A stretch of 64,000 bases of DNA, taken from positions 2,464,001-2,528,000 of the forward strand of contig CM000155.2 of the NCBI GenBank assembly GCA_000004695.1. Reading direction: 5' to 3'. Origin of the DNA: Dictyostelium discoideum. Taxonomy: Eukaryota. How positions within the stretch are numbered: the first letter of the stretch is position 1; every line of letters begins with the position of its first letter. Positions 1-45,321 of the stretch are shown here, piece after piece. A program made the position numbers and the translations under genes. The notes below the pieces were generated by a model. That model had not been told where the DNA came from, did no database searches, and saw nothing but the letters and a program-made list of their open reading frames with translations.

Positions 1-3000
1 GAAGCATTAGATAAAGAATACGATGAAAAAGTATACGCCGGTCATTACAATGATAAAATACGTGCAAAATACACATCACAATATAGTGGTAGAGATTTAC
101 CATACATTCACAGCACATTGGAGATGTTGACCAGTGGTAGAGCAATCGAAGAGAAAATGATATATCCAAAAAGTACATTTAAAATCGTAAAAGATAGACA
201 TGGAAAAGAGATATACGTGAAGACAAATAAAGAGGATCTAGATGATTTCCTTGGGAGTGGTAGAAAAGGAGCACAAGTAAATTTGGATAATATTAGATTT
301 GAGTTTGTACCAAAATACGAGCATGTACTTCATCCAGAAATCGCAAGATTATCCAAACCAAATCAACAACAATTCATTAGAATGGTGGAGACCATCTCTA
401 GAGTTTTCTCCCAACTCGATCAATATTTAGAGAATTATCGTGAACAATTCACAAACAATGAATTGACCTACTTTGAAACCGCTTTGAAAATTTTACGTGA
501 AGAGTATTTGACAAATCCAGAATTTAGAAAGTCATTCGCCAAAGATCAAGCCGCTGATGCCGCCGCTGCCGCTGCTACTTCCACTGCCGCTGCTAATTCC
601 TCCTCCTCACCCTCATCATCATCATCTATAATTGGTTTAACAGAGTCAGAAGTTCAACAAGCAAATAGAGATGTTGAAATTTTATTAACCAATTTATTAA
701 AGGATTTACATACTAAAAAGATGAAAGCAGGTATTAACTATGAGATTAAACGTTCAATGAAAAGTTTTACACTCACACCAGAGGACAGAGATATTATAGA
801 GGAGGGAGCCTATCAAGAGAATCCAGATGCCACCTATGATCAAGCTGCTGCCGATGCATTAGGCGAAGAAATCGATGAGATTGATCTCGAGATTTTCGAA
901 GATGATACATTGGAACGTGGTCGTTATTTAGAGTTTGATATGATGGCTTATCTCAAACAAATCGAATCCACTCAAGCAACACTCTACCTTCACTTAAAAT
1001 CACTTCCAACCGTAGAGGAGAGAAAAGCAGTGATCAAAGATTTCTCTCAATTTAAAAACATTAGAGATTCAATTAGAAATCAAAGATTCGTCACATCAAA
1101 AGAGTCTGGTCAATCATTGAATGATTTGATCACCTCTCATATGACATTCATGAACACTCATGAATCTATCGTTCAAAAATTAACAGAATTGGAAACAATC
1201 GTTGAAGATCCAGAAATGGTTCAAACTAAATTAAATCTTGTTGAAGCTATTAAATTAAATACAACTCTTTCACCATTGCAATTATTTGAAAAATATATTG
1301 CGCCAGGTGCATCAAGGGAAGATATTGCCATGGAATTTGGTGAAAAATTTGTTAACGATAAAAATAATGATAATAATGAAAGTCGTCAAGTTGAAATCGA
1401 TGAATTGGAGAGTTCAGAATTTAAAAATAAACTTGAACAATTAAAAGCAGCAAAACAAAAAGAAGAACCAAAAAAAGTTTTAAATCAATTAGAACAAGAA
1501 TTAGAGAATAAAGATAAAGAATCAGGTGAAGGTGCTGAAGTTGATGCTGCTGCTGATACTCAAGGTGTAATTGAATTACCATCAATTGATGAATTATCAA
1601 AATCACCAGAGTTAATTGGTTATTTGGAAGAGCTCAACCAAAACATTGGAAAGTCTAATTATCCAATGTATGAAAAACATAGAACCTATCTTTTAAGAGA
1701 ATTAGAGAGACTCAACGCCGATAGAGATGCCAAAGTAAACACATGGGAGTTTGGTTCACTCACTGAACAATTGAAACAACTTTTAATTAAAAATGGTGCC
1801 GCCTTTGAAGACCTTGGTAATAGATTCGATGAGTTGACCACAAACGTTGTCAATTCACCATTTTCCGCTAAATACCTTCCATTGACTCCAGAGGCATTGG
1901 TAGAGAAAGAGAAACAATTGGACAATCTCAAACAATTACTCGAGGCTAGAATTAAATCAAACTATACTTTAAAGAAGGGTGAGGAGGTTGAACAAATGAT
2001 TAGATTACGTGAAGGTATTCAAATGTTTAGAGAGATGGGTTTAGACACCGATATGGAACTCATTGAAAAGACTATCTTTGAAGATGGTGAGCTCGATACA
2101 CCAAGCGTCAATTCCATTAGAGAGTCTGATATCTTTGAGCCAGTTCAATTGATAAAATCCCTCTACAAATTAGGTCCACATAGATTCGAAAATGCCGTTC
2201 AAAGTCTCAAGAGATTACCATCCATGGTTTACTATTGTCAATACATTAACGATCGTTTCTTAAATACAAATGATACCTTTATCGCTCCACTCGATATCAA
2301 TGAGCCAACCTTTGAAAAATTCCCTCCACTTTTAAATTATAATGATGATTATGTCGAAGGTTTGGAGTATGCAATTCCAATTTTAAATTATGATGGTCCT
2401 AAAACACTTTTAAAATTAGGTACTGTTGAACATGAAGAACTTACCTTTGATCATGAAAAGGCAGGTGTTGAATTAGCAGATCAAGAAGAAGAAGAAGGAT
2501 TTTTTGATGTAGAAAAAATACAAGAAGAAATGAAAGGCCAAGAAAAAGAACAACACCAACAACAACATCAACAACAACAACAACAAGAGGAAGATGAAGA
2601 AGAATATGAAAAAGAAGGATATGAAGAGGAAGATGTAGAAGGACATGAGGAGGAAAAAACCACTAAAATTCTCGGACTTGATCCAGTAAGAAGGTTCGAT
2701 GAAGACTATGCTGAAGAATCAGAAATATTATCTCAATTTAGCAAGAAAAATAGAACCTTTTTAGGAGAAGGTAGTTTAAATCAATTGGGTGACGTTTATC
2801 AAGATCCACTCGAACTTATCCAAGATGATAATGTTGTTGACCCTGGTGATGTTCAATTATTCGATAAAAAGATCGACCAATTAATCTCTAGTAGAGAAGC
2901 GGCTAATATTGTCACAGAATCTGAAGTTCCTATTACTGATCCAACTCAATTTATTAAATATCATCCAAAAGCCAGAGGAGAATTGGTCAGTAAAGACGAT

Positions 3001-5724
3001 GAAGAATGGGTCGATAAAATGCAGCAAAAACTATCATCAGGCAATGAGAGGGATGACGACGAAGAATATGATTATGATGATTTTGCAGAGGTAGAAGATA
3101 AAGATCCAGTCAGCTTGGAGGAATACATGAAAATCGATGAAAAGCAAAATCAAATTTATGAAAAATACCACAGTTCACTTTCTCTTAATAAAATGAAAGT
3201 TCGTGAAGAATTCATTGATCAAATTCATCTCAATAGAATGAATCAAATATTAAATGGTAAAGATTATAAAAATGGTTTAATCAATTTGGATGAAATGATC
3301 AAAGAATCAATCGTTGAACAAAGACAAAAACAACAACAACCACCATTATCACCAGAAGATTTAAAACTATTAAAAGATGGTTTACGTGATGAATTTGAAT
3401 CCATTCAAAAAGATATTGATCAAGTTATCCTTGAAGCTAAAAATATTAATGAACTCTCTAAAATGATGGAATCTCTTAAAAAATCTGAACTTCTCCAAGC
3501 TGAAAAAGAAAGTAAACTTGAAGAAGAAGAAGATGACGAAGAAGAAGAAGAAGAAGAGGACAATCAAGAATTAGAACAACAAAAAGAAGAATATAGTCAA
3601 GAAGAAGAATACGATCAAGAAGAATATGAACAACAAGAAAAAGATATGGAAGATAACGAATCAAAACTTCAAAAAGAAATAAGTGATCAATTGGAACAAG
3701 AAGAACTTAAAGAAATAGAAGCTTTAAAAACGAAAAGAGATTTAATAGATGATGATGTAATCACACTCGAGAATAGATTTAGTGAATGGATAAATGCTGA
3801 TAATTTAGGTGTAAATGAAAATGAACTCAAAAAATTAGAAAGTAATATTAAAAATCCTGAAGAATTAAACTTTCCAGAATTGTTAGATGACCGAAAGATT
3901 ATAGTCAAAGATCCAAAATCAATCTTAAAAATGAAAGAAGGAGCACTCAAACAATTAAAAGATAATTGGAATAAAGATGTACTCGTGTTGGAAGCTGATG
4001 AATTAGTTAATCCAAAAACCGTAAGAGCAGAGGACACTGAATCTATCCCAGATGATCTTACTCTTACCGATGAAGATGATCAAAATTTAGATGTTGAAGA
4101 TGCTGGTGACGTTGATTTTGATGTTGAAGAAAATAAAACCGATACAAAACTATTCATCAAAGGTGATGATATCCTTGCTTCTCAAAAAGTCGTAGAAGAT
4201 CAAGATATTGATGTTCTCCTCAATAGAGATAACCATACTGAAGTTAGTGAAGACAAAGAAGAAGAAGATGATGATGATGATGATATAGATAACATTGGAA
4301 TCTCAAATTTGGATGAAAATTCCGGTTCAGCCATTGATGCCTTTAAAAATCCAATTTTATCTGTTTCAGAAGAATCAATTTCAGAATTCAAGCCACCATC
4401 AACATCAGAAGTTACCCGTACAGAATCTGAAACATTAACATTCACCTTGAAGGAATTAAGTGAATATGAAGAGGTGATTCATCAACGTAAACTTTTAAGA
4501 ATTTATCGTTCATTCCCAAACTTTGGTATTTCTGATGAGTCACAGTTCAAAACTGATGAACTCATTTACGATGAAGATGGTGATAACGATTTCGCTGATA
4601 AATTATTCCTCATGGAAGTTAATACACTCTTAAACAAAGGTAATATCATGGATCAAGCAAGCAGACCAATCTTTGAAAATCAAAATGATGATCGTTTCAA
4701 TAATGTTGGTGCAGATGAAAGATTGGCCCAAGAGATGGGTTATGACAAAGATGACCTTTACGATGAAGATGAATCCCAAATGACTGAAGTCGAACAAGTA
4801 TTGCCACAAGTTCCAAATTCCGAAAATGATATGGCAGCCGCAAGAGCCTTTGAACTTGAAATGCAAACTAAAGAAATTCAACAATGGCGTGACGTTCCTC
4901 GTCTTGAAAATGCAAAGATTGTCGATATCTCTCGTCATGTTAAAGTAACCACAGCCGGTCGTGTTCAATCTTTTTCAGTAACCATTTTCAATGGTGATGG
5001 TAATGGTACCGCTGGTATGGGTTATGGTAAAGGTGATAGTGCATCATCTGCCTTAAGAAGAGCTTTCAAAGATTCCGAAAGAAACGCCTTCAGTTTGGAT
5101 AGATACAACCATCTCACTCTTCCATCTGGTTTAGATTTCAAATATAGAAGTACCAAAGTTAAATTCATCAAGAGTAGACCAATGGATTTTATGGATCATC
5201 GTGGTATTAAACCAAGTCTCATCTTACCAACTATCGGTCTTCATGGTGTCACCTTTAGAACCTATGGTAAGAAAGATTGGAACTCTGTCTTATTAGCCAT
5301 CCAAAAATGTCTACCACATTATACAAATCCTCAAGAAGCTGCTCGTATCATGGGTAAGAAATTCGTAACTCCAAATAGAGAAAAAGCTCAAAACAAAACT
5401 CTTCATCAATTATTAAAATCTAAACTCGAAACCAGAAATAATGATCCTTACAATTTAGGTATGGTTAGTAAATTCCTCTTTGATGTCGAAGATAAACCAG
5501 ATATCAATGAAATTAAAGAACGTAGATATCAAGAAGAAATTGATCAATTATTCGAACGTTATCCAATCGCTCCTTCAACACCTTTCTTGGGTGATAATGT
5601 TGAAGATTTTAAATTTAAAGGTATTAATATTAATGGTAATGGTAATGGTAATGGTAATCGTAAACATATTGATAAAATGCATCAAAAAGGTAGAAAACAT
5701 GGACGTAATACAAGAAATTTATAA
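1..5724 (+). CDS. Mitochondrial ribosomal protein S5 (uS5m) homolog, 5'-partial. The frame is open from nt 1, so the gene starts upstream of the window. It has a long acidic low-complexity N-terminal extension.
   Basis: Continuous 5.7-kb ORF in frame 1 with no stop between nt 1 and the TAA at 5722-5724. The ORF track starts it at a TTG at 118, which is not a real start. The C-terminal region (about 4880-5300) carries the uS5 signature GRVQSFSVTIFNGDGNGTAGMGYGKGDSASSALRRAFKDS followed by LPTIGLHGVTF, which matches both S5 domains. The upstream part contains poly-Q, acidic and poly-N tracts. Confidence 0.6.
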   Translation, partial: EALDKEYDEKVYAGHYNDKIRAKYTSQYSGRDLPYIHSTLEMLTSGRAIEEKMIYPKSTFKIVKDRHGKEIYVKTNKEDLDDFLGSGRKGAQVNLDNIRFEFVPKYEHVLHPEIARLSKPNQQQFIRMVETISRVFSQLDQYLENYREQFTNNELTYFETALKILREEYLTNPEFRKSFAKDQAADAAAAAATSTAAANSSSSPSSSSSIIGLTESEVQQANRDVEILLTNLLKDLHTKKMKAGINYEIKRSMKSFTLTPEDRDIIEEGAYQENPDATYDQAAADALGEEIDEIDLEIFEDDTLERGRYLEFDMMAYLKQIESTQATLYLHLKSLPTVEERKAVIKDFSQFKNIRDSIRNQRFVTSKESGQSLNDLITSHMTFMNTHESIVQKLTELETIVEDPEMVQTKLNLVEAIKLNTTLSPLQLFEKYIAPGASREDIAMEFGEKFVNDKNNDNNESRQVEIDELESSEFKNKLEQLKAAKQKEEPKKVLNQLEQELENKDKESGEGAEVDAAADTQGVIELPSIDELSKSPELIGYLEELNQNIGKSNYPMYEKHRTYLLRELERLNADRDAKVNTWEFGSLTEQLKQLLIKNGAAFEDLGNRFDELTTNVVNSPFSAKYLPLTPEALVEKEKQLDNLKQLLEARIKSNYTLKKGEEVEQMIRLREGIQMFREMGLDTDMELIEKTIFEDGELDTPSVNSIRESDIFEPVQLIKSLYKLGPHRFENAVQSLKRLPSMVYYCQYINDRFLNTNDTFIAPLDINEPTFEKFPPLLNYNDDYVEGLEYAIPILNYDGPKTLLKLGTVEHEELTFDHEKAGVELADQEEEEGFFDVEKIQEEMKGQEKEQHQQQHQQQQQQEEDEEEYEKEGYEEEDVEGHEEEKTTKILGLDPVRRFDEDYAEESEILSQFSKKNRTFLGEGSLNQLGDVYQDPLELIQDDNVVDPGDVQLFDKKIDQLISSREAANIVTESEVPITDPTQFIKYHPKARGELVSKDDEEWVDKMQQKLSSGNERDDDEEYDYDDFAEVEDKDPVSLEEYMKIDEKQNQIYEKYHSSLSLNKMKVREEFIDQIHLNRMNQILNGKDYKNGLINLDEMIKESIVEQRQKQQQPPLSPEDLKLLKDGLRDEFESIQKDIDQVILEAKNINELSKMMESLKKSELLQAEKESKLEEEEDDEEEEEEEDNQELEQQKEEYSQEEEYDQEEYEQQEKDMEDNESKLQKEISDQLEQEELKEIEALKTKRDLIDDDVITLENRFSEWINADNLGVNENELKKLESNIKNPEELNFPELLDDRKIIVKDPKSILKMKEGALKQLKDNWNKDVLVLEADELVNPKTVRAEDTESIPDDLTLTDEDDQNLDVEDAGDVDFDVEENKTDTKLFIKGDDILASQKVVEDQDIDVLLNRDNHTEVSEDKEEEDDDDDDIDNIGISNLDENSGSAIDAFKNPILSVSEESISEFKPPSTSEVTRTESETLTFTLKELSEYEEVIHQRKLLRIYRSFPNFGISDESQFKTDELIYDEDGDNDFADKLFLMEVNTLLNKGNIMDQASRPIFENQNDDRFNNVGADERLAQEMGYDKDDLYDEDESQMTEVEQVLPQVPNSENDMAAARAFELEMQTKEIQQWRDVPRLENAKIVDISRHVKVTTAGRVQSFSVTIFNGDGNGTAGMGYGKGDSASSALRRAFKDSERNAFSLDRYNHLTLPSGLDFKYRSTKVKFIKSRPMDFMDHRGIKPSLILPTIGLHGVTFRTYGKKDWNSVLLAIQKCLPHYTNPQEAARIMGKKFVTPNREKAQNKTLHQLLKSKLETRNNDPYNLGMVSKFLFDVEDKPDINEIKERRYQEEIDQLFERYPIAPSTPFLGDNVEDFKFKGININGNGNGNGNRKHIDKMHQKGRKHGRNTRNL

Positions 5725-6029
5725 ATAAAAAAAAAAAAAAAATAATAATAATATAATTTAATTCATTTACTTCTTTTTTAAAAAAAAAAAAAATAATAAT
5801 ACAAACTCATATATTAAAAAAAAAAAAAAAAAACAATAATAAATAAAATCATTAATTAAAAAAAAAAAAAAAACCATTTAGTTTACACTTGTTATTTTGG
5901 AAAAAAAAAAAAACTTTCCCAAATCTTGAGTTTTACTTTTTTTTTTTTTTTATGTTTTTTTTTTTTTTAATTTTATATTTGTGTTTGTGTGTTATAAGAT
6001 TTAAAATTTTCATAAAAAATAATAATAAA

Positions 6030-6198
6030 ATGGAAGAGTTTCATAGAAGTTTTTGTGAGTACATGGAGAAAGAGCATCCTGGACATTGGCTAGATACGAT
6101 CTTGTATGGGGATATAAATAATAGGAATATTATCATTAATGAAGCTTTGGAAGAGATTTGGAGCCAGGAAATATATGATAGTATGCCACTATTATTGA

Positions 6199-6285
<87 letters not shown>

Positions 6286-6509
6286 GTAATAATAATAATA
6301 ATAATAATAATCATATTAATAATAATAATATTAATAATAATAATCATAATAATAATAATAATTCTAAAATTGGTAAAGTGAATGTTGATGTTGGTGAATT
6401 TTGTTTTGACAAATACTATAAATATTTAAACAATTTTGAAGAATCAAAAATAAATATATCAATAGTTAAACAGTTTGAATTCTATATTAAATGTGTTTAT
6501 TTTATTTAA
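6030..6509 (+). CDS. Small hypothetical protein of about 160 aa (MEEFHRSFCEYMEKEHPGHW...poly-N...KYLNNFEESKINISIVKQFEFYIKCVYF). It is a paralog of 9465..9824.
   Basis: The ATG at 6030 follows the A/T-rich leader. The track ORF 5889..6509 starts earlier in poly-F low complexity. The C-terminal 40 aa are about 75% identical to the 9465 gene. The 3' end lies inside a 64-bp perfect inverted repeat and the C-terminus is truncated relative to the paralog, so this may be a decaying copy. Confidence 0.35.
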
Positions 6510-6675
6510 TATTTTAAAAAAAAAAACCTGTTGGCTATATATATATATATGATAATTACTTAAAAATGATATTAAAATCTTCTTTTGAAAGTTCAAAAAA
6601 TCCGTGAAAATAATAAACACATTTAATATAGAATTCAAACTGTTTAACTATTGATATATTTATTTTTGATTCTTC
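6438..6675. repeat. Perfect 64-bp inverted repeat (arms 6438-6501 and 6612-6675) separated by a 110-bp AT-rich spacer.
   Basis: Arm 1 is gaagaatcaaaaataaatatatcaatagttaaacagtttgaattctatattaaatgtgtttatt. Arm 2 is its exact reverse complement. Imperfect similarity extends about 10 bp beyond each arm. Arm 1 encodes the C-terminus of the 6030..6509 ORF. Confidence 0.9.
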
Positions 6676-6679
6676 ATAA

Positions 6680-6685
6680 TTGTTG

Positions 6686-6726
<41 letters not shown>

Positions 6727-6973
6727 TGTTTTAAAATTTAAAAAATTCTATACAAATAAATTAGAATTTTATAAATGGGAAAGTTATATAGCTTGTAGAT
6801 ACCCAAAATATTTTTCATATTTTTATAAAACACCTCAAATTAATGATATTATTGATACAGTTGTAACAGATTTACTTTCAAAACCAAGTAAAGAATCTTT
6901 TAAATTTTTATTAGAATTTATTGAAAGTGTTAAAAGTTTTACATGTGCAGTATGTATGATTATATATATATAA
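6680..6973 (+). CDS. Open frame (...YKWESYIACRYPKYFSYFYKTPQINDIIDTVV...KFLLEFIESVKSF) paralogous to 9946..10140. It is a probable downstream exon of the small gene, or a 5' exon of the duplicated large gene.
   Basis: About 70% amino-acid identity with the frame at 9946-10140. Both are preceded by a long A-run and followed by a GTATGT immediately after a conserved TGT-ACA/GCA codon pair, so each is probably an internal exon. There is no convincing ATG of its own. The poly-K start given by the track is an artefact of the A-run. Confidence 0.3.
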
Positions 6974-7299
6974 TTTATATATTCAATAATTTTTTTTTAT
7001 TCATTTTTATTTAATTTAAATAATAATAATAACATTTTTTTTTTAATTTTATTATGTTATTATGTTTTATTTTTTTTAAAAGGAATTATCAAATAAAATT
7101 TTTAAAATTGTTATCAAAAATCATATGGTATTGGTAGTTATAATTTATTATTTATATAAATAATATTAACCGAAAAATTTAATTTAAGAAATGTTGGGAC
7201 TATTTATGATTTCATTATAAATATTACCAGTTTGGAGACTCTCAATAAAAAAAAAGATAAAGAATATATTGAAATTAAAAAATTTAATTAGGTTTTGTA

Positions 7300-8812
<1,513 letters not shown>

Positions 8813-9464
8813 ATAAAGGATCACCCAAACTAATTCTATTTTTAATATTAAAAGATTTTTATTACCAATAAAACCAATAAATAAAAAATAAAAAAAAAAA
8901 AAAAAAAATAAGATTTGTTTTAATTTATCACTAATTGTGTACCTCTTTAACTTTATTTATTTTTTTATAATTTTTTTAAAATTTATTTTAAATAAATAAA
9001 AAAAAAAAATTGTTGAAATTAATAATGGTTATTTAAAAGCAAAATTTTAATCATTTCCAATTAAAATTTTTTTTTATCTCTTTATTTATTTTCTATCCAT
9101 TTTTAATTTATCAAAATAAAATTCCAAATAAAAAAAAAAAAAGAAATATGTTTAAATTTAATTTTTAAATTACCAACCAAACAAGATTTTCAAATTAATA
9201 TTAATAAAATTATTATCAATTTTTGTTTAAATTTCTAAAATAAAATAAATTAATGTAATGTTATTAAATATAATTCAAAAATTTCCTAATGTATCTAAAT
9301 AAAAAAAAAAAAATAAAAAAATTATACACCTTTTTAATTTATTTTTGTTTTTATTTTTATTACACTTTTTTTTTATTTTTTTTTTGTTGTTTTTTCACAT
9401 TTTTTTTTTTGTTTTTTCATTTTCTTTTTTTCATTTTCTTAATTCCATTTTTTTAATTTCCACA

Positions 9465-9597
9465 ATGAATTTGGCTAATATCTTAGATAAAGCTTTAGAA
9501 GAGCTTCGGGAGAAGGAATTAACTGATAGTTTGACACAACACGTTAATAATAATAATACTAATAATATTATTAATAGTAATAATAATAATAATAATA

Positions 9598-9659
<62 letters not shown>

Positions 9660-9864
9660 TCTGTGGAGGAATTTAGTTTTAAAAAACATTCTAAATATTT
9701 AAACAATTTTGAAGAATCAAAAATAAATGGGTCAACAGTAAAACAGTTTGAATTCTTTATGAAAAGTGTTTATTTTCACGAATTTGAACTCTCAAAAGAA
9801 GATTTAAATATCGTTTTTAAGTAATTATCATATATACAGTTTTAAGTTTCAAATCAAATACTAA

Positions 9865-9910
<46 letters not shown>

Positions 9911-10140
9911 TATTTCAAAATTTAAAAAATTCTATACTAAAATAGGCTATTATAAATGGGAGAGTTATATAGCTTGTAGATATCCAAAATATTTTTCATA
10001 TTTTCATAAACCAACTCGAATTAATGATATTATAGATTCAATTGTAAAAGCTATATTGCTTTCAAAACCATGTAAAGGATCATATAAATTTTTATTAGAA
10101 TTTATTGAAAGTGTTAATGATTATATATGTACAGTATGTA
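9465..10140 (+). CDS. Small hypothetical gene (MNLANILDKALEELREKELTDSL...poly-N...KYLNNFEESKINGSTVKQFEFFMKSVYFHEFELSKEDLNIVF), with a probable second exon at 9946..about 10140.
   Basis: ATG at 9465, with the ORF running to 9824. A candidate phase-1 donor A|GTAATT lies at 9822/9823 and a matching acceptor AAAATAG|GC at 9945/9946. Together they join in frame to ...SYYKWESYIACRYPKYFSYFHKPTRINDIID...LEFIESVNDYICT. The second exon ends at a GTATGT donor near 10140 and may splice on into the 10343 ORF. That linkage is unresolved because the phases do not match at the candidate sites I found. Confidence 0.35.
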
Positions 10141-10342
10141 TAATACTTAACAACATTCACATACACACACACACCACTCTCTCTTCACTTTAATAATATT
10201 TTAACATATTTTATTTTTTTTTTTAAAAAATAAAAAAAAAAAATAAAAAAATAATAAGAAAGTTGCAGATAAAATTTATGCAATTATTTTAGATAATAAT
10301 TATGAAGTACTTGGTTTTGATCATTATAATTTATTTTTTATA

Positions 10343-11089
10343 TTGATAATAATAGCTGATAAAATTAGTGCAAATCCACAGGGTATTATAGGATATTTTA
10401 TTAATATTAGCATTTTAGAGATTCCTAATGAAAAAAAACATATGGAATATTTGTTAAAATTCAAAAATTTTATTGTCTATTATTACAAAAAAAATACACA
10501 AGAAGTTTTGAACCAAGAGTTATTTTCATTTCTTGCAGCATTTCATGGACCAGATTTACAAAAACAAAACCAACAATATTTATTAGATTTGGTTTATGAT
10601 ATTAAAAGTTTTCCAGGAAAAGAATACTTGGTTAAAGAACTACTTTCACATGGTTATTACGATTTATTTTTAATGGAATATGCAGAAACAAAAAAACCAG
10701 CTTTTCATTTCTTTTTGTTGAACCATTTACCATTTAATGAATTTCTCAATCTTTCAAAGAATTTCTATTATCATAGTTTTAGAAAATTTTTTAAGAGATC
10801 ACCACCATGGAATTCTGATGCATTCTTAAGAGCATTGTTTCATTCTAATCAGGTACTTTTAAATCCAACTAAAACTGAATACATTTTCAAAATGGTTGAA
10901 GCTTCAACATCTTTATCAACAAATAATATTAAATCATTATATGATGCAGCTTTTCAATTTTCATTAAAATCATCATCATCATCACATTTCTCATCTACTG
11001 TATCAACTTGTTCACCATCTTTATCACCAATATCAACTTTATTTAAATCACATAAATTTTTATCAGAATTATTTGATGAAACTCTATCA

Positions 11090-11130
<41 letters not shown>

Positions 11131-11297
11131 AGTAAAAAAATTATTCTTAACAAATAATTTAGAATTCTTTTTAAAAGTATTAACTATTGATAATATTGAT
11201 AAATATTTATTACAAATTTTTGGTAAAAATAAATTATTATCTTCAAAAATTTATATTGATAAAATCAATTCTAAATTTAATAGTAATAATAATAATG

Positions 11298-11350
<53 letters not shown>

Positions 11351-12936
11351 CAAAAATTTATAAATTATTTACCATTATCAACAGAATTTAAAGAAAGAAT
11401 TTTATATATGTTAAGTTGTGATAAATCAATTGCACAATTTCAAAGATTAAATATAGTTATGGTTTGCAAACATTTCTTTTCTACATTTAGTAAACTTATT
11501 AATAATTCAACGATTGTACCAATCATTTTAAGTTATAATCAATTTAGTAATCTTATTAGTAATTCATTTAAAAATTTTAGATCAAATTCAATGATTTCAT
11601 TTCAAAAAGTGAAATATTTAAAGATCTTTAACGATAGAATTCCAAAACTAACAAACACTGAAAAAATTGAAGAATCAAAATTATCATTAAGATCAAAACA
11701 ATTGAAAAATATATTATCACCACCACCACCACCAATGACAACTAAATTATTTACATCAACAATGTTAACCCATGAAAGTTTTTTTGGTTCAATCTATTTT
11801 TCAATTGACTTTTTCACTGGATTAGAAATTCTTGAAATTGATCAACTCATTGAATTTCATCAAGTTTTATTACTCAAATCACTAAAAAAGATAATATTAC
11901 ATCTTGAACAAAGTGAAGGTTCATCATTTGGTCCTGAAGATAAAGAGAAAATCGATCTTTTAGTAAATGGTGGTATTTTCAATGATTTTACAACTGATGG
12001 ATATATTGTTGAATTACATTTCAAACATTATAAAAATAAAAATCATGGTATAGATATGTCATTAGTGAAATCAGTTTCAATGGGATTATCGAAATTCTTT
12101 GATTTATTCGATGATGATATGGCATCAATACCAATACTTTATTTAGATTTAAATGATTCTCCAACAAGAAATTCACTAGAAACCTTTAAAAAATATTTAA
12201 AATCATCTCCAAAGAAATTATTATTAAATGAATTACATTTACATTTTTCAGTTCATAGTAGTAGCATAATAGGTAATAATAATAATAATAATAATAATAT
12301 TTTAAGTATTGAAAATATTTTAGAGAATTTCAAATCATTCAGTAAAATTCAAACATTATATTTCCATATTACATCCAATGAAATACCAATACCATCTAAA
12401 GTAACCATACAATCAGTTATTAAATCAACACTCGAATTTATTTTATCAAACTTCAAAATGGTCAACAAAGTTTTATTCATCGATGAATATGGTCTTCCAT
12501 TGAATATTGATTGGTATCATATTTTAAATATATTACCTAAAGTGAATATAAATACTTTTGATTTCATAGGGTTTCATATTGATAACCAACCTGATATCAC
12601 AAAGGCTATTGAAGGAAATAATAAAAATAATTTATCAATTAACCAACAACAAAAAGAACAACCAACAAAAACAACAACAACATCAACAAAAACAACAACA
12701 ATAACACCGACAGTAGCAGAAACAAAACAACCAAAAGCAGCAAAAACATCAGAAACAAGACAACCAACACCAATAAAAACAAAACAAACAACAACAACAC
12801 CAACACCAACACCAATAAAAACAACACCAACACCAACACCAACAACAACACCAACACCAACACCAACAACAAAAATACCAACACCAACACCAACAACCAC
12901 AAAAACAACAACAACACCAACACCAACAACAACACC

Positions 12937-12982
<46 letters not shown>

Positions 12983-13486
12983 CCAACACCAACAACAACA
13001 CCAACACCAACAACAACACCAACAACCTCAAAACAACCTCAAAAACCTAAAGAACAATCGCATGAAAACATTGCTTTTACAGATTTTTATGGTTTTAATG
13101 AAAAGAATAGTGAAAAAGATAGCGAAGATGAAGATGAAGATGAAGATGAAGATGAAGATGAAGATGAAGATGAAGATGAAGATGAAGATGATGAGGATAA
13201 GTTTTCGGATGATTGTAGTTCTGACTCATTTTATTTTAGAGAGTACTCTGATAAAAGAGAACTTGGTCAAACTGATGATGGACAATTCACTCCATCAAAA
13301 TATTCCAGAACGAGACATATGTATCATGGTGGTGGTGGTGATGATTCTGATGATTCTGATGATGGCTCAGACTCTGATGAAGCCGCTAACTTTTTTGCTC
13401 ATCAATTAGCAAGAGCTTCATTACATGGAATGTTGGGTGCTTTAGGTTTTCTTGATAATTCCGATAGTGACGATGATTCTGATTGA
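10343..13486 (+). CDS. Large hypothetical protein (at least 1047 aa) with poly-N tracts, a T/P-rich mucin-like repeat region (12650-13030), a (DE)n acidic run (13125-13200) and a conserved C-terminus (FYGFNEKNSEKD...DDCSSDSFYFREYSDKRELGQTDDGQF...LHGMLGALGFLD).
   Basis: 3.1-kb uninterrupted ORF. The frame is open upstream back to 10247 with no in-frame ATG, and the track start at 10343 is a TTG, so the true 5' end probably lies in upstream exons. The ACACCAACACCAACA repeats encode TPTPTT. I recognise no family. Confidence 0.6.
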
Positions 13487-14473
13487 TCAACCTATTCCAA
13501 TAAAAATAATCATCCAAATTAACTCTATTATTAAGATTACCAAAAAAACTAATAAAAAACAAATAAATAAATAAATAAATAAATAAAAATAAAATATAAA
13601 TAAAAAATAAAAAATATGTCTTTTTAATTCTGAAAGTTTGAAATTTTTAAATTTGTTTATATATTTTAGATTAAATAATTTATTTTATAGTTTGAAAATA
13701 AAATTAAATGATTAAATAATTTTTTTTTTTTTTTTTTTTTTAATATTTATTAATCAGTATTAAATAGATAAATATAATAATAAAATTGTAATTGATTGGA
13801 TGGTCGAAGGAGATAAGATTTGGAAGCACTGATTCCGGAATACAATATTGCAAGTTATTTTTCTTAATTAAATTATTTATTTATGGCAATTGTTTGGGGC
13901 TTTTAATTTTAGGCCGTTATACAATTGATTGCAGATTTTAATCATTAATTCCATTATGTTTCTATATGCGAAGTGTAATAAAATGTATTGCCTATATTTA
14001 CCAATAGAACAATAAAGAATATGTGTGAAATTTTAATTACTATTGTACACAAATATTAGTAGTAATAATATTATTAATTCTTTATTATTCCTTATATTTA
14101 TACTTTAACACTAATAATATTATATCTTTTACAAATTATGATTAAAACACCAATGATTTTTATTTATTTTAATTTGGCTTTTTATACTGAATTATTATTC
14201 TTAGAAGCCTGGGAAGGATTTAACGGCAATTTGTTATTCTGAGTAACTTCATTTCGGTTATAGATTGTATATGGAAATGGATCTTTGGAAAAAAACTTAT
14301 AATAATGATTCTATAATTAAAGCTGCTATTCGTTTGTGATTATTAAAGTTTGTGAATAGGTCGTAGTTTACATCTTTTATATTTATTAGAACTATAGGTG
14401 TAATTCTGTTTGTAAATTTATTTTTGGATTCAATATTTCTTTGATGTTGTCAATTTTTTAAAAGAAACTATCC

Positions 14474-15984: not shown

Positions 15985-17319
15985 ATGAAAATCACAAACA
16001 ACACCACAAATATTAAGCAACACAAATGCCTACAAAAAATAAGCGAAATTGTGGATAAAACTCAATTAAAAAAAAAACAATTCAAATACGTCATAAACAT
16101 CAATCACGAACCAGACGATAAAATAAAAAAAGATTTAGAAAAAAGTTTGGACAAAAAAGATGTTTTAATCAAAAGTAATAATACATTCAAAATTCTCACA
16201 GACAGTATTAGTACAGTAATCTATTTTGTAAATATGTTTGATGCAGAATTAAAAGGACAATTTATAACCACTATAAGACCAAAAAATATGTATACAGATT
16301 TTGATTGGTATAAATCACTCACAGAAATAGAATGGGTAATAGAAAATGAAGGATGTAAACTAATTAAATCAGAAATTAAAGGCGAAACTCTAATTATCAA
16401 AACAGTGAAAAGAGTCGTAGAAGAATTTGACACTATCATTGAACTAGACAATCTAACATTAATTGGACACTCCAACAAAGGATGGAGAGATCAAACCTCA
16501 TTACCAGAAAATCAAGAAGAAAACAAAAATAAAAAACAATCAGATGAACAACAACCACAATCTACATCAGAACAAATACCAAAACAAGGAAAAAGAACAA
16601 TCATTATCCCACCAATCACATCCTCATCTAATGATAAAACATTTATGGCCCTAGATGATACAGCTCAAAAGGTAATAGATGCATCACTAGAAAACGTAGA
16701 TGAACTAACAAGAATAGAGAATGAGATCAATACACAATCGATAAACAATCAAGAAATTAAAACAAAATCAGAAAAACCTATCGAACCACCATCTCCATAC
16801 AATACACCAATAAAACAACACGGCGAAACAAAGAGACTAACAACGGAAGAAAAACTTAGAGAGGTAAATGATATCTTCGACTTCACCAGCCCAAACACTG
16901 ATGCAATAAGAAAAATAGAATTCCCACTTTCAATCCCTTCAAATCAATGGTTCTTCTCCTCTCCAATAAAACATATCATGAGTTTCAGCCCAACCTATGG
17001 TACACCATCGAAAATTATCGATTCACCAAGTAAATTGTTAAACACACCAAAAAACAAACAACAAGACAAAACAAACAGGACCAACAAAACACCAGTCAAA
17101 CCAAAATTGGGTGAATATGGACAAAAAAGCATAAAAACAAAAATGGATGAAGATATAGACAACTTCAACAAGGAAATTCTAAAACAAATCAGTAAATCAA
17201 AAAACCCCACAAACACACAAGACCAACAACACAATGAACAAAGTAAAGATCAGTTAGAAGACAAAATAAACCAGAAACTTCAAAAGGTAGATAAAAATCT
17301 ACCCCAAATAAAACTATAA
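15985..17319 (+). CDS. TRE5-A-like retrotransposon ORF1 protein (444 aa), intact.
   Basis: ATG immediately after the B-module. It is 99% identical (4 aa differences) to the copy at 18983..20317. Truncated 66-89-codon versions occur at 15244, 17699 and 20725. I recognise no conserved domain, as expected for ORF1 of this family. Confidence 0.7.
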   Translation: MKITNNTTNIKQHKCLQKISEIVDKTQLKKKQFKYVININHEPDDKIKKDLEKSLDKKDVLIKSNNTFKILTDSISTVIYFVNMFDAELKGQFITTIRPKNMYTDFDWYKSLTEIEWVIENEGCKLIKSEIKGETLIIKTVKRVVEEFDTIIELDNLTLIGHSNKGWRDQTSLPENQEENKNKKQSDEQQPQSTSEQIPKQGKRTIIIPPITSSSNDKTFMALDDTAQKVIDASLENVDELTRIENEINTQSINNQEIKTKSEKPIEPPSPYNTPIKQHGETKRLTTEEKLREVNDIFDFTSPNTDAIRKIEFPLSIPSNQWFFSSPIKHIMSFSPTYGTPSKIIDSPSKLLNTPKNKQQDKTNRTNKTPVKPKLGEYGQKSIKTKMDEDIDNFNKEILKQISKSKNPTNTQDQQHNEQSKDQLEDKINQKLQKVDKNLPQIKL

Positions 17320-18982: not shown

Positions 18983-20317
18983 ATGAAAATCACAAACAAC
19001 ACCACAAATATTAAGCAACACAAATGCCTACAAAAAATAAGCGAAATTGTGGATAAAACTCAATTAAAAAAAAAACAATTCAAATACGTCATAAACATCA
19101 ATCACGAACCAGACGATAAAATAAAAAAAGATTTAGAAAAAAGTTTGGACAAAAAAGATGTTTTAATCAAAAGTAATAATACATTCAAAATTCTCACAGA
19201 CAGTATTAGTACAGTAATCTATTTTGTAAATATGTTTGATGCAGAATTAAAAGGACAATTTATAACCACTATAAGACCAAAAAATATGTATACAGATTTT
19301 GATTGGTATAAATCACTCACAGAAATAGAATGGGTAATAGAAAATGAAGGATGTAAACTAATTAAATCAGAAATTAAAGGCGAAACTCTAATTATCAAAA
19401 CAGTGAAAAGAGTCGTAGAAGAATTTGACACTATCATTGAACTAGACAATCTAACATTAATTGGACACTCCAACAAAGGATGGAGAGATCAAACCTCATT
19501 ACCAGAAAATCAAGAAGAAAACAAAAATAAAAAACAATCAGATGAACAACAACCACAATCTACATCAGAACAAATACCAAAACAAGGAAAAAGAACAATC
19601 ATTATCCCACCAATCACCTCCTCATCTAATGATAAAACATTTATGGCCCTAGATGATACAGCTCAAAAGGTAATAGAAGCATCACTAGAAAACGTAGATG
19701 AACTAACAAGAATAGAGAATGAGATCAATACACAATCGATAAACAATCAAGAAATTAAAACAAAATCAGAAAAACCTATCGAACCACCATCTCCATACAA
19801 TACACCAATAAAACAACACGGCGAAACAAAGGGACTAACAACGGAAGAAAAACTTAGAGAGGCAAATGATATCTTCGACTTCACCAGCCCAAACACTGAT
19901 GCAATAAGAAAAATAGAATTCCCACTTTCAATCCCTTCAAATCAATGGTTCTTCTCCTCTCCAATAAAACATATCATGAGTTTCAGCCCAACCTATGGTA
20001 CACCATCGAAAATTATCGATTCACCAAGTAAATTGTTAAACACACCAAAAAAGAAACAACAAGACAAAACAAACAAGACCAACAAAACACCAGTCAAACC
20101 AAAATTGGGTGAATATGGACAAAAAAGCATAAAAACAAAAATGGATGAAGATATAGACAACTTCAACAAGGAAATTCTAAAACAAATCAATAAATCAAAA
20201 AACCCCACAAACACACAAGACCAACAACACAATGAACAAAGTAAAGATCAGTTAGAAGACAAAATAAACCAGAAACTTCAAAAGGTAGATAAAAATCTAC
20301 CCCAAATAAAACTATAA
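18983..20317 (+). CDS. TRE5-A-like ORF1 protein (444 aa), second intact copy.
   Basis: It differs from 15985..17319 by four substitutions (D/E, R/G with V/A, NK/KK with R/K, S/N). It is followed by the same ORF2 5' fragment (20298-20570). Confidence 0.7.
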   Translation: MKITNNTTNIKQHKCLQKISEIVDKTQLKKKQFKYVININHEPDDKIKKDLEKSLDKKDVLIKSNNTFKILTDSISTVIYFVNMFDAELKGQFITTIRPKNMYTDFDWYKSLTEIEWVIENEGCKLIKSEIKGETLIIKTVKRVVEEFDTIIELDNLTLIGHSNKGWRDQTSLPENQEENKNKKQSDEQQPQSTSEQIPKQGKRTIIIPPITSSSNDKTFMALDDTAQKVIEASLENVDELTRIENEINTQSINNQEIKTKSEKPIEPPSPYNTPIKQHGETKGLTTEEKLREANDIFDFTSPNTDAIRKIEFPLSIPSNQWFFSSPIKHIMSFSPTYGTPSKIIDSPSKLLNTPKKKQQDKTNKTNKTPVKPKLGEYGQKSIKTKMDEDIDNFNKEILKQINKSKNPTNTQDQQHNEQSKDQLEDKINQKLQKVDKNLPQIKL

Positions 20318-37319: not shown

Positions 37320-42713
<5,394 letters not shown>

Positions 42714-44061: not shown

Positions 44062-44748
44062 TTAATTGCCAATACATTTAGTACCAGTTAAATTAATTCC
44101 ATTTCTCATTTTAAAGTTTTCCAACCAACCACTACTAGCCTTGAAAGTGTTATTATTTAATTGTTTTGATAAATCGAGAGCAAACTTTTTAATGGTTTCA
44201 CCGCTAACCATTTCACCATTAGCACGAGCTTGATTAATTTTTTCAATTATTAAATTTTCTTGTTCAATTGAGAAGGAGGCTTTTGGACCTTTGTGTAATT
44301 TCTTTAAATTCTTTTTACCAAAACTTCTATATTTATCAATGTTTGAAATCCAACGAGAAATAATACTACGAGAGATATGATATTTCTTTACAACATGATT
44401 CATACCAAACTTATTTTTCTCTTCAAGAATTTCCAACTTTTTATACACCTCATATGATTTTCTTGGTTTCTTACCATTAATAGCGGCAGCACTAACTCTT
44501 TTACTCACTTTACCACTATTTGTAATTTGGTTATTAATATTATTATTATTATTATTATTAAATTCACTACCACTACAAATTGGTGAATTTGGAACTTGCA
44601 TCATTGGGCTACTTGGTTCATCTCTTCTTGATGAACAATCATCACTATCATATTCACTATCATCATCTGAAAAATTATTATTGTTATTATTATTATTGTT
44701 ATTATTATTATTATTATTATAATTATTATTATTATTATAATCAATAAA

Positions 44749-44796
<48 letters not shown>

Positions 44797-45321
44797 AAAA
44801 ATATTATTATTAAAATTATTATTATTTGAGGATGGAACTTTAACTGGTGAAGAAGAAACTATTGGTGAATGAACTGGAGTTGTTTGAGTTGAATAATAAT
44901 AATTTGGAGAGGTACTTGTTGGAGATGATGGTGATGATGGTGTTTTGGTTTTTAAGCTTGCAATTGTATTTATAATGGTTTCATCTGATGTATCTTCAAT
45001 AAGTGATGATTGATCTGAATTATTATAGGATTGAATATACATATTTACATTATTAAAACTACTATTTAAACTATTATTTTTAATTGAAACTCTTGAAATT
45101 TTATTGAAATTATTATGATTATTATTATTATTATTATTAAAATTATTATTATTAAAATTATTAAAATTATTATTATTATTATTATTATTATTATTTGTAT
45201 TGTTATCTGAAATATTTATTATTTGTATTAATGGTGTTGTTGTTGTTGTTGTTGTTGTTGTAGTTGGTGTTGGTAATGTAATTGGTTTTGAAATATTATT
45301 TAAAATATAATGTAATTCCAT
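44062..45321 (-). CDS. Poly-N-rich protein with C-terminal psq-type and CENP-B-type HTH DNA-binding domains (pogo/Tigger-derived DNA-binding module), 419 aa.
   Basis: The C-terminal 150 aa read KRVSAAAINGKKPRKSYEVYKKLEILEEKNKFGMNHVVKKYHISRSIISRWISNIDKYRSFGKK...KGPKASFSIEQENLIIEKINQARANGEMVSGETIKKFALDLSKQ...FKASSGWLENFKMRNGI. This matches the CENP-B N-terminal and HTH_Tc5 patterns (two helix-turn-helix units, GWxxxFxxR). The N-terminus is low-complexity N/T/S-rich. Confidence 0.5.

What the first reader, a model, noticed from the sequence alone, without database searches (positions are those of the whole stretch)
6438..6675. Perfect 64-bp inverted repeat overlapping the 3' end of a coding region
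Two arms identical over 64 of 64 bp in inverted orientation with a 110-bp spacer are not expected by chance in any genome. Arm 1 is the last 21 codons of the 6030..6509 ORF. The paralogous copy at 9700-9790 has no such inverted partner. The structure is therefore a recent inverted duplication of a gene 3' end. It can form a long hairpin in a read-through transcript and may feed the RNAi pathway or silence the paralog family, or it may be a cruciform-prone fragile site.
Basis: seen in the sequence. Interest (0 to 1): 0.55.

Follow-up and report, generated by a model that had tools for sequence, protein, structure and literature searches.

The report
Small inversion scar in a dead gene
The perfect inverted repeat is real, but it is the scar of one small flip-and-copy mutation that helped kill a duplicated Dictyostelium gene; nothing shows that it has a function.

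Summary
Window 6437-6501 and 6612-6676 are a perfect 65-bp inverted repeat with a 110-bp spacer, and the match is 72/73 over 6429-6501 / 6612-6684. The window is Dictyostelium discoideum AX4 chromosome 6.

Arm 1 is not a true gene 3' end. It lies inside exon 1 of a decayed tandem paralog, here called copy A (6030-8911). The intact neighbour, gene B (9465-13486), encodes 1269 aa.

Read on the minus strand, arm 2 plus the spacer encode the missing end of exon 1, followed by the intron-1 splice donor. Two related assemblies carry copy A in the un-inverted, un-duplicated state, and in one of them it is an intact 1173-aa gene.

One switch-and-return operation on that ancestral sequence (four-point type 3-1-2-4) reproduces AX4 at about 91% identity, against 69-74% for a linear alignment. 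It reproduces both junctions, with 4-nt and 2-nt microhomologies and a 12-bp deletion.

An independently assembled genome of the same lineage has the identical structure, so this is not an assembly artefact.

The hairpin potential (-99.5 kcal/mol) follows automatically from the repeat. No annotated D. discoideum miRNA precursor contains stem sequence. Small-RNA reads and transcription could not be tested. This is an ordinary mutation of a known kind in a pseudogene, and interest is low.

The parts
6030..6509 (+). Truncated exon-1 ORF of pseudogene copy A. The last two codons (F, I) and the stop TAA at 6507-6509 are read from inverted intron sequence.
6429..6501 (+). Arm 1, called segment R here: the original 73-bp copy, in place, encoding NNFEESKINISIVKQFEFYIKCVY. 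The perfect part is 6437-6501.
6498..6501 (.). Junction 1 (switch point 1 to 2). The 4-nt microhomology TATT is shared by the end of R and the reverse complement of the intron.
6502..6559 (-). Inverted 5' part of intron 1. On the minus strand it reads gtaattatcatatatatatatatagccaacagg(t)n aaaatattaaataa, with the donor GT at 6559-6558.
6560..6611 (-). Inverted end of exon 1. On the minus strand it encodes ..YFHGFFELSKEDFNIIFK, collinear with gene B and with the orthologs.
6612..6684 (-). Arm 2: the new, inverted copy of R. It carries one derived base at 6677, the partner of 6436. The perfect part is 6612-6676.
6683..6684 (.). Junction 2 (switch point 3 to 4), with a 2-nt microhomology TT. Twelve bp of ancestral intron (CTAATCCTATTT) are missing here.
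6685..6723 (+). Retained 3' part of intron 1: GTAT, a run of 35 A, and the acceptor AG at 6722-6723.
6724..6949 (+). Exon 2 remnant of copy A, homologous to gene B exon 2 (9908-10133).
6950..8911 (+). The rest of pseudogene copy A: in-frame stops, frame changes, and loss of the codons matching ortholog residues about 485-872. The fragments annotated as DDB_G0293092 (7952-8560) and DDB_G0293094 (8630-8785) lie here.
9465..13486 (+). Intact paralog gene B (exons 9465-9820, 9908-10133, 10259-13486; 1269 aa). It serves as the in-window reference for the un-rearranged exon 1 / intron 1 arrangement.

Best explanation
The inverted repeat is the footprint of a single local rearrangement in a dying tandem gene duplicate of Dictyostelium discoideum.

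The ancestral order was: exon 1 containing segment R (73 bp), then the last 52 nt of exon 1, then the splice donor and intron 1, then exon 2.

In the AX4 lineage, copying ran to the end of R (point 1). It then jumped about 114 bp ahead onto the complementary strand inside intron 1 (point 2, 4-nt microhomology TATT). It copied backwards through the 5' intron, the exon-1 end and R itself to the start of R (point 3). It then jumped back to the original template 12 bp beyond point 2 (point 4, 2-nt microhomology TT).

The product is R, then an inverted [5' intron + exon-1 end], then an inverted R, then the 3' intron and exon 2. [quoted passage not shown]

Shown here:
- the ancestral state, from two orthologs and one paralog;
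- the exact junctions;
- that one such operation reproduces the AX4 sequence;
- that the event is specific to the AX4 lineage;
- that it destroys exon 1 and the splice donor;
- that the host copy is a pseudogene.

Inferred:
- that the physical mechanism was a replicative template switch rather than breakage and rejoining;
- that the repeat has no function, its hairpin-forming ability being a by-product.
For: (1) The reverse complement of spacer plus arm 2 is collinear with gene B, through the end of exon 1 and the donor gtaattatcat.

(2) The syntenic orthologs of copy A in GCA_054859355.1 (L002) and GCA_054859385.1 (L003) have one copy of R, in the uninverted order. In L002, copy A is an intact 1173-aa gene.

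(3) blastn aligns window 6498-6684 to L002 10460-10274 on the minus strand, between plus-strand flanks.

(4) I applied the four points 10274 / 10346 / 10460 / 10473 to L002. This gives 418/457 (91.5%) identity to AX4 6329-6790, against 343/461 (74.4%) for the linear alignment. Both junctions are reproduced base for base. With L003 the figures are 320/350 against 244/354.

(5) Both arms share the AX4-derived T at 6467, where L002, L003 and gene B all have A. The only difference between the arms (6436 / 6677) is derived in arm 2. The duplication therefore happened within the AX4 lineage and recently.

(6) Compared with the intact ortholog, copy A also has stops, three frame changes and a loss of about 390 codons.

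(7) An independent assembly carries the same structure.

(8) The event type and its outcome match the published four-point model (PMC5453318).
Against: [quoted passage not shown]

In a genome with 23% G+C, microhomologies of 4 and 2 nt are not far from chance.

One event cannot tell a replicative switch from a staggered break rejoined by end joining.

Lack of function is an argument from absence. I had no small-RNA or RNA-seq reads.

The two outgroup assemblies are labelled D. discoideum but are only about 87% identical to AX4 here. No close natural isolate was available to show polymorphism within the species.
Confidence: 0.82

Rival explanations
1. The structural outcome is the same but the mechanism differs. 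The 183-bp segment was excised by two double-strand breaks. The left break was staggered by 73 nt and filled in, so both sides kept R. The segment was then religated in reverse by end joining. This is the staggered-break model proposed for Drosophila inversions.
For: Inverted duplications at inversion breakpoints are the hallmark of that model (Ranz et al. 2007, PMC1885836; found). Short microhomologies and a 12-bp loss at the other junction also fit end joining.
Against: Only one breakpoint is duplicated. The model was built for inversions of kilobase to megabase size. A 73-nt stagger next to a blunt or resected break 114 bp away needs more coincidences than one switch-and-return. The derived base 8 nt from junction 2 in the new arm fits error-prone copying, but it could equally be a later point mutation.
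Confidence: 0.15
2. The repeat is, or is becoming, a functional hairpin-RNA locus. Copy A is still transcribed from its old promoter, the 73-bp stem is diced into 21-nt RNAs, and those from arm 2 guide an Argonaute to gene B mRNA.
For: RNA from either strand folds into a continuous stem (-99.5 / -100.8 kcal/mol, z about -18.8). Seven stem 21-mers (starts 6429-6435) match gene B exactly in arm 1, and thirteen more differ at only 2 positions. The region upstream of copy A aligns with the ortholog in one block at 87%. Long, near-perfect hairpins are discussed as young miRNAs in Amoebozoa (PMC11014262). Template switching is a documented source of new miRNA hairpins in primates (PMC10710096).
Against: No Rfam family matches. 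No annotated D. discoideum miRNA precursor in Liao 2018 or Edelbroek 2024 contains any 9-mer tile of the stem, and no chromosome-6 (NC_007092) entry appears in the held text of the latter. The structure is absent from both related lineages, so nothing shows conservation. The host gene carries many other disabling lesions, as expected under neutral decay. Transcription is unknown.
Confidence: 0.07
3. It is an assembly or cloning artefact: a fold-back chimera in the reference.
For: Perfect inverted repeats can arise from chimeric clones or reads.
Against: The second assembly, GCA_054883475.1, has the identical 311 bp across the structure but differs in a neighbouring homopolymer length, so it was built independently. 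Both junctions rejoin genuine flanking sequence (intron 3' end and exon 2), which a fold-back chimera would not do.
Confidence: 0.02
4. The arms are terminal inverted repeats of a small transposon, or arm 2 is a fragment of paralog B inserted backwards.
For: Short inverted repeats flanking about 100 bp resemble a MITE at first glance. Gene B is 86.5% identical to arm 2 plus spacer.
Against: Arm and spacer sequences are the gene's own exon and intron, 93% identical to the ortholog of copy A and 100% identical to arm 1, against 86.5% to gene B. There are only two copies in the window. There is no target-site duplication, and the spacer is simply the inverted local sequence.
Confidence: 0.01

Closest known systems
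Short-range template-switch mutation, four-point model type '3-1-2-4' (mirror '1-3-4-2'); Loytynoja and Goldman 2017, Genome Res (PMC5453318)
   Same: [quoted passage not shown] The switch points lie in the order 3 < 1 < 2 < 4. [quoted passage not shown]
   Different: [quoted passage not shown] The event is in an amoebozoan, inside a gene, and it removes a splice donor. The replicative mechanism itself is inferred, not shown.
Inversions with inverted duplications at the breakpoints, formed by staggered breaks (Ranz et al. 2007, PLoS Biol, PMC1885836)
   Same: The inverted segment carries a duplicated breakpoint sequence in inverted orientation.
   Different: Here the scale is 183 bp rather than kilobases to megabases. 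Only one breakpoint is duplicated, and the other has a 12-bp deletion.
New miRNA or hairpin-RNA genes born from an inverted duplication of a target gene, or from template switching. Sources: Monttinen et al. 2023, PNAS (PMC10710096); the plant inverted-duplication model of Allen et al. 2004 and the Drosophila hpRNA loci, both cited from my own knowledge.
   Same: There is a perfect hairpin made from coding sequence of a gene that has a near-identical paralog. It sits in a unit that was once transcribed.
   Different: There is no evidence of small RNAs, of transcription or of conservation. The stem is 73 bp and the loop 110 nt, unlike mature miRNA precursors. It is not among annotated D. discoideum miRNAs.
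Quasi-palindrome correction (classic Ripley template switching in bacteria)
   Same: A strand switch produces perfect complementarity.
   Different: The classic model needs a pre-existing imperfect repeat. The ancestral sequences here have no second arm at all.

Membership tests
Template-switch mutation, four-point type 3-1-2-4 | The derived sequence is reproduced by ancestral left part + reverse complement of one nearby ancestral fragment + ancestral right part. | tested here: met
   The model built from L002 gives 91.5% identity against 74.4% linear. From L003 it gives 320/350 against 244/354. Junctions are exact.
Template-switch mutation, four-point type 3-1-2-4 | The switch points lie in the order 3 < 1 < 2 < 4 on the ancestral sequence. 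| tested here: met
   L002 coordinates are 10274 (3), 10346 (1), 10460 (2) and 10473 (4).
Template-switch mutation, four-point type 3-1-2-4 | [quoted passage not shown] | tested here: met
Template-switch mutation, four-point type 3-1-2-4 | It arises in one step during DNA replication. | not testable with these tools
   Only the end product is visible. Break-and-rejoin gives the same product.
Staggered-break inversion with breakpoint duplications | Inverted duplications of breakpoint sequence flank the inverted segment. | tested here: inconclusive
   A duplication (73 bp) is present at the left breakpoint only. The right breakpoint has a 12-bp deletion.
miRNA / hairpin-RNA gene | The transcript folds into a stable stem-loop. 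| tested here: met
   -99.5 and -100.8 kcal/mol, z about -18.8. This follows trivially from the repeat.
miRNA / hairpin-RNA gene | Discrete small RNAs of about 21 nt map to the stem arms. | not testable with these tools
   No read data were available. The stem is absent from the annotated precursor lists and from Rfam.
miRNA / hairpin-RNA gene | The hairpin is conserved in related genomes. | tested here: not met
   Neither L002 nor L003 has the second arm.
Transposon terminal inverted repeats / MITE | Multiple copies, target-site duplication, and internal sequence unrelated to the insertion site. | tested here: not met
   There are two arm copies only. The arms and spacer are the gene's own exon and intron.
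Cruciform-prone palindrome / fragile site | A very short or absent spacer between long, identical arms. | tested here: not met
   The spacer is 110 bp. The structure is stable in two assemblies. The threshold for instability comes from my own knowledge and was not tested here.

The most novel reading that the evidence does not exclude
The pseudogene is still transcribed, and the newly made 73-bp hairpin is diced into 21-nt RNAs that dampen the intact paralog, gene B. This would be an amoebozoan hairpin-RNA or proto-miRNA locus caught at birth. It would have been created in one step by a template switch on the coding sequence of its own target.
Probability: 0.06. Interest if true: 0.6.

Novelty: new member of a known kind. 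Interest (0 to 1): 0.22.

Why it matters
Practically, the finding corrects the annotation. ORF 6030-6509, DDB_G0293092 and DDB_G0293094 are pieces of one pseudogene, and the ORF's stop codon was created by a rearrangement.

It is also an unusually clean and unusually long (183-bp) example of an inversion plus inverted duplication, with both junctions and the ancestral state resolved. It shows that this class of mutation occurs in Dictyostelium and can disable a gene in one step.

It would matter more only if the hairpin proved to yield small RNAs against the surviving paralog.

Tried and rejected
- Rfam, at a permissive E-value over 5000-10500, gave only two chance-level hits elsewhere.
- Pfam on gene B found no family.
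- A word-indexed homolog search with a reconstructed ancestral exon 1b-2 peptide found nothing. The same tool with gene B exon 3 found the two orthologous assemblies.
- phmmer against 1.84 billion representatives found only an ortholog fragment and one weak hit, so the gene is an orphan and there is no wider paralog family.
- Exact-product look-ups for DDB_G0293092 and three ORFs around the repeat found no further contigs, so no further assemblies or strains could be sampled.
- Identifiers of the three new assemblies are not in the paper library, so their strain or species identity is unknown.
- DDB_G0293090 appears in a Dictyostelium microprocessor paper. This turned out to be the upstream S5-domain gene, listed as a dsRBD-containing protein, and is unrelated to the repeat.
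- Tiling the stem with 9- to 11-mers against the supplementary miRNA tables of Liao 2018 and Edelbroek 2024 gave no hit. The one 9-mer match was in an unrelated hairpin.
- I rejected a transposon, insertion of a gene B fragment, and an assembly artefact, for the reasons given under the rival explanations.

Full report
**Observation**

The maximal perfect run is 65 bp (6437-6501 / 6612-6676) with a 110-bp spacer. Homology runs out to 6429 / 6684, giving 72/73 with one mismatch at 6436 / 6677.

A 43-mer from the arm occurs only at these two sites, and none of 100 shuffles produced a match. This is the only complex-sequence, high-identity inverted repeat in the window. The rest are poly-A / poly-T matches of 70-86%. 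The window has 23.4% G+C.

**Where we are**

ORF 7952-8560 is exactly XP_629316 / DDB_G0293092 of Dictyostelium discoideum AX4, on a 3.60-Mb record that I take to be chromosome 6. ORF 8630-8785 is DDB_G0293094. The upstream 1868-aa ORF belongs to DDB_G0293090, an S5-domain protein.

**Anatomy**

Region 6030-8911 (copy A) is a tandem paralog of 9465-13599 (gene B). Gene B has three exons (9465-9820, 9908-10133, 10259-13486) and encodes an uninterrupted 1269-aa protein. It has no Pfam domain. It has essentially no relatives among 1.84 billion representative proteins.

Copy A aligns to gene B only in pieces that lie in different frames. It has in-frame stops and a large internal gap.

The key point is what the minus strand of spacer plus arm 2 says. 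Read from 6684 down to 6560, it encodes NNYEESKINISIVKQFEFYIKCVYYFHGFFELSKEDFNIIFK. This is followed at 6559 by gtaattatcatatata. That is the end of exon 1 and the intron-1 donor, just as in gene B (...VYFHEFELSKEDLNIVFK | gtaattatcatatata).

On the plus strand, homology to gene B stops at 6501. The ORF then reads two more codons and a TAA (6507-6509) from sequence that is the reverse complement of the intron. So arm 1 is not a genuine 3' end. The 110-bp spacer is itself an inverted piece of the gene.

After arm 2, the plus strand resumes with the 3' end of intron 1 (GTAT, a run of 35 A, acceptor AG at 6722-6723) and then exon 2 from 6724.

**Ancestral state from other genomes**

A homolog search with gene B exon 3 found two proteins from other assemblies labelled D. 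discoideum. Their loci are syntenic with the window: the S5-domain gene, then copy A, then gene B, then a THH1/TOM1-3 domain gene (the window's own THH1/TOM1-3 gene is identified). They are only about 87% identical to AX4 at the DNA level.

In L002 (GCA_054859355.1), copy A is an intact 1173-aa gene. In L003 (GCA_054859385.1) it is called as two genes of 579 and 534 aa. Both carry a single copy of R, followed in the normal orientation by the exon-1 end, the donor, and an intron reading ...AAATAAAATA CTAATCCTATTT GTATAAAA...AG.

blastn places window 6498-6684 on L002 10460-10274 in minus orientation, between plus-strand flanks.

**Reconstruction**

I took L002 as the ancestor and joined three pieces:
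- the sequence up to 10346 (point 1, the end of R);
- the reverse complement of 10274-10456. This is the 2-to-3 fragment; points 3 and 2 are 10274 and 10460, and the last 4 nt overlap the end of R as the microhomology TATT;
- the sequence from 10473 onward (point 4).

The result matches AX4 6329-6790 at 418/457 (91.5%). Both junctions are reproduced base for base. The ordinary linear alignment gives 343/461 (74.4%). The same operation on L003 gives 320/350 against 244/354.

The junctions have 4-nt (TATT, 6498-6501) and 2-nt (TT, 6683-6684) microhomologies. Twelve bp of intron (CTAATCCTATTT) are lost between points 2 and 4.

In the four-point terminology of Loytynoja and Goldman (PMC5453318) this is event type 3-1-2-4. 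[quoted passage not shown] Here the copied fragment is 183 bp, much longer than the events that paper addresses.

**Age and lineage**

Both arms carry T at 6467, where L002, L003 and gene B all have A. The duplication therefore happened after that AX4-lineage substitution. The single inter-arm difference is derived in arm 2, because arm 1, both orthologs and gene B agree. It lies 8 nt from junction 2.

One difference in 73 sites, set against about 8.5% divergence from L002 in the same stretch, puts the event in roughly the last sixth of the time since that split. It is younger still if the mismatch arose during the event. This estimate is an inference and is very rough.

**Not an artefact**

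A further assembly, GCA_054883475.1 (L001), has no mismatches to the window over 12.8 kb and differs only at four indels. It contains both arms and is exactly identical across 6380-6690. It has 28 rather than 35 A in the run after arm 2, so it was assembled independently.

It is evidently the same strain lineage, however. Polymorphism among natural isolates remains untested.

**Status of the host gene**

Against the intact ortholog P0004, AX4 copy A retains these pieces:
- residues 1-116, in the plus orientation;
- residues 92-133, inverted;
- residues 133-275, an alignment block with four stops (it also runs through the intron-2 remnant);
- residues 298-323 and 377-484, in two other frames;
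- residues 873-1172, with one stop.

Residues about 485-872 are gone. Copy A is a pseudogene. The genes annotated as DDB_G0293092 and DDB_G0293094 are fragments of its last exon.

**Consequences and function**

The rearrangement removes the last 17 codons of exon 1 and the splice donor from the sense strand. It creates a stop two codons after the junction. By itself it is a null mutation.

RNA from either strand would fold into an uninterrupted stem of about 73 bp (-99.5 and -100.8 kcal/mol, z about -18.8). As DNA the value is -72.7 kcal/mol. All of this follows automatically from the repeat.

Some stem 21-mers match gene B perfectly (starts 6429-6435 in arm 1) or with 2 mismatches (starts 6459-6471). 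Silencing of gene B is therefore conceivable. Nothing supports it:
- There is no Rfam hit.
- No precursor in the supplementary miRNA tables of Liao 2018 (PMC6161686) or Edelbroek 2024 (PMC11014262) contains any 9-mer tile of the stem. There is no chromosome-6 (NC_007092) entry in the held text of the latter.
- The hairpin is absent from both related lineages.

miRNA annotation criteria exclude loci that give heterogeneous siRNAs, so this does not rule out siRNA production. Only read mapping can settle that.

A cruciform or fragile-site role is unlikely with a 110-bp spacer. This rests on my own knowledge of spacer effects in yeast inverted-repeat instability. The structure is also identical in two assemblies.

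**Mechanism**

The structural claim is one event combining inversion, a 73-bp inverted duplication and a 12-bp deletion. It is well supported.

Whether the event was a replicative switch-and-return or a staggered break rejoined by end joining cannot be decided from one case. The second option follows the Drosophila model of Ranz et al. 2007 (PMC1885836).

I favour the template switch for three reasons. It needs a single process, the duplication is at only one breakpoint, and the scale is local. The microhomologies are short for such an AT-rich genome and carry little weight.

**Verdict**

It misreads the anatomy, because this is not a 3' end, the spacer is inverted, and the host is a pseudogene.

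This is a new, well-resolved example of a known kind of mutation. Interest is low unless small RNAs are found.

Noticed in passing
window 7952-8560 and 8630-8785: The AX4 genes DDB_G0293092 (202 aa) and DDB_G0293094 (51 aa), both annotated as 'hypothetical protein', are fragments of the last exon of pseudogene copy A. The ortholog in GCA_054859355.1 is one intact 1173-aa gene.
   Followed up: yes
L002 (GCA_054859355.1) and L003 (GCA_054859385.1), whole loci: These two assemblies are labelled Dictyostelium discoideum. In this syntenic region, coding sequence included, they are only about 87% identical to AX4, and they also differ from each other. That is far more than I would expect within one species, so they may be cryptic or mislabelled species. 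Their identifiers are not in the paper library.
   Followed up: partly
window 15985-17319 and 18983-20317: Two tandem 444-aa ORFs are 99% identical (438/444) and have no Pfam domain. This is a very recent tandem duplication 7-10 kb downstream of the A/B pair, so the region seems prone to duplication.
   Followed up: partly
window 6200-6365 versus L002 about 10160-10200: The (AAT)n tract that encodes poly-Asn in copy A exon 1 is greatly expanded in AX4 (about 50 Asn codons). The orthologs have about 10.
   Followed up: no
window 6686-6722 versus L001 about 4742-4770: The intronic poly-A run directly after arm 2 is 35 A in the window and 28 A in the second assembly of the same lineage. This is either a homopolymer sequencing error or genuine instability.
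   Followed up: no
window 118-5724: The upstream neighbour DDB_G0293090 is a very large protein (about 2000 aa) with a ribosomal S5 domain. A Dictyostelium microprocessor paper lists it among dsRBD-containing proteins. Its position next to a hairpin-forming locus is coincidental.
   Followed up: partly
window 37320-42713: There is a subtilase (Peptidase_S8) fused to ABC-transporter transmembrane and ATPase domains, split over two ORFs. From my own knowledge, this architecture resembles the Dictyostelium Tag (TagA-D) proteins.
   Followed up: no
window 44062-45321 (-): A 419-aa ORF has a Tc5-transposase HTH DNA-binding domain. Asn-codon-rich low-complexity sequence around 44505-44826 cross-matches the copy A repeats. 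It may be a transposon remnant or a domesticated gene.
   Followed up: no
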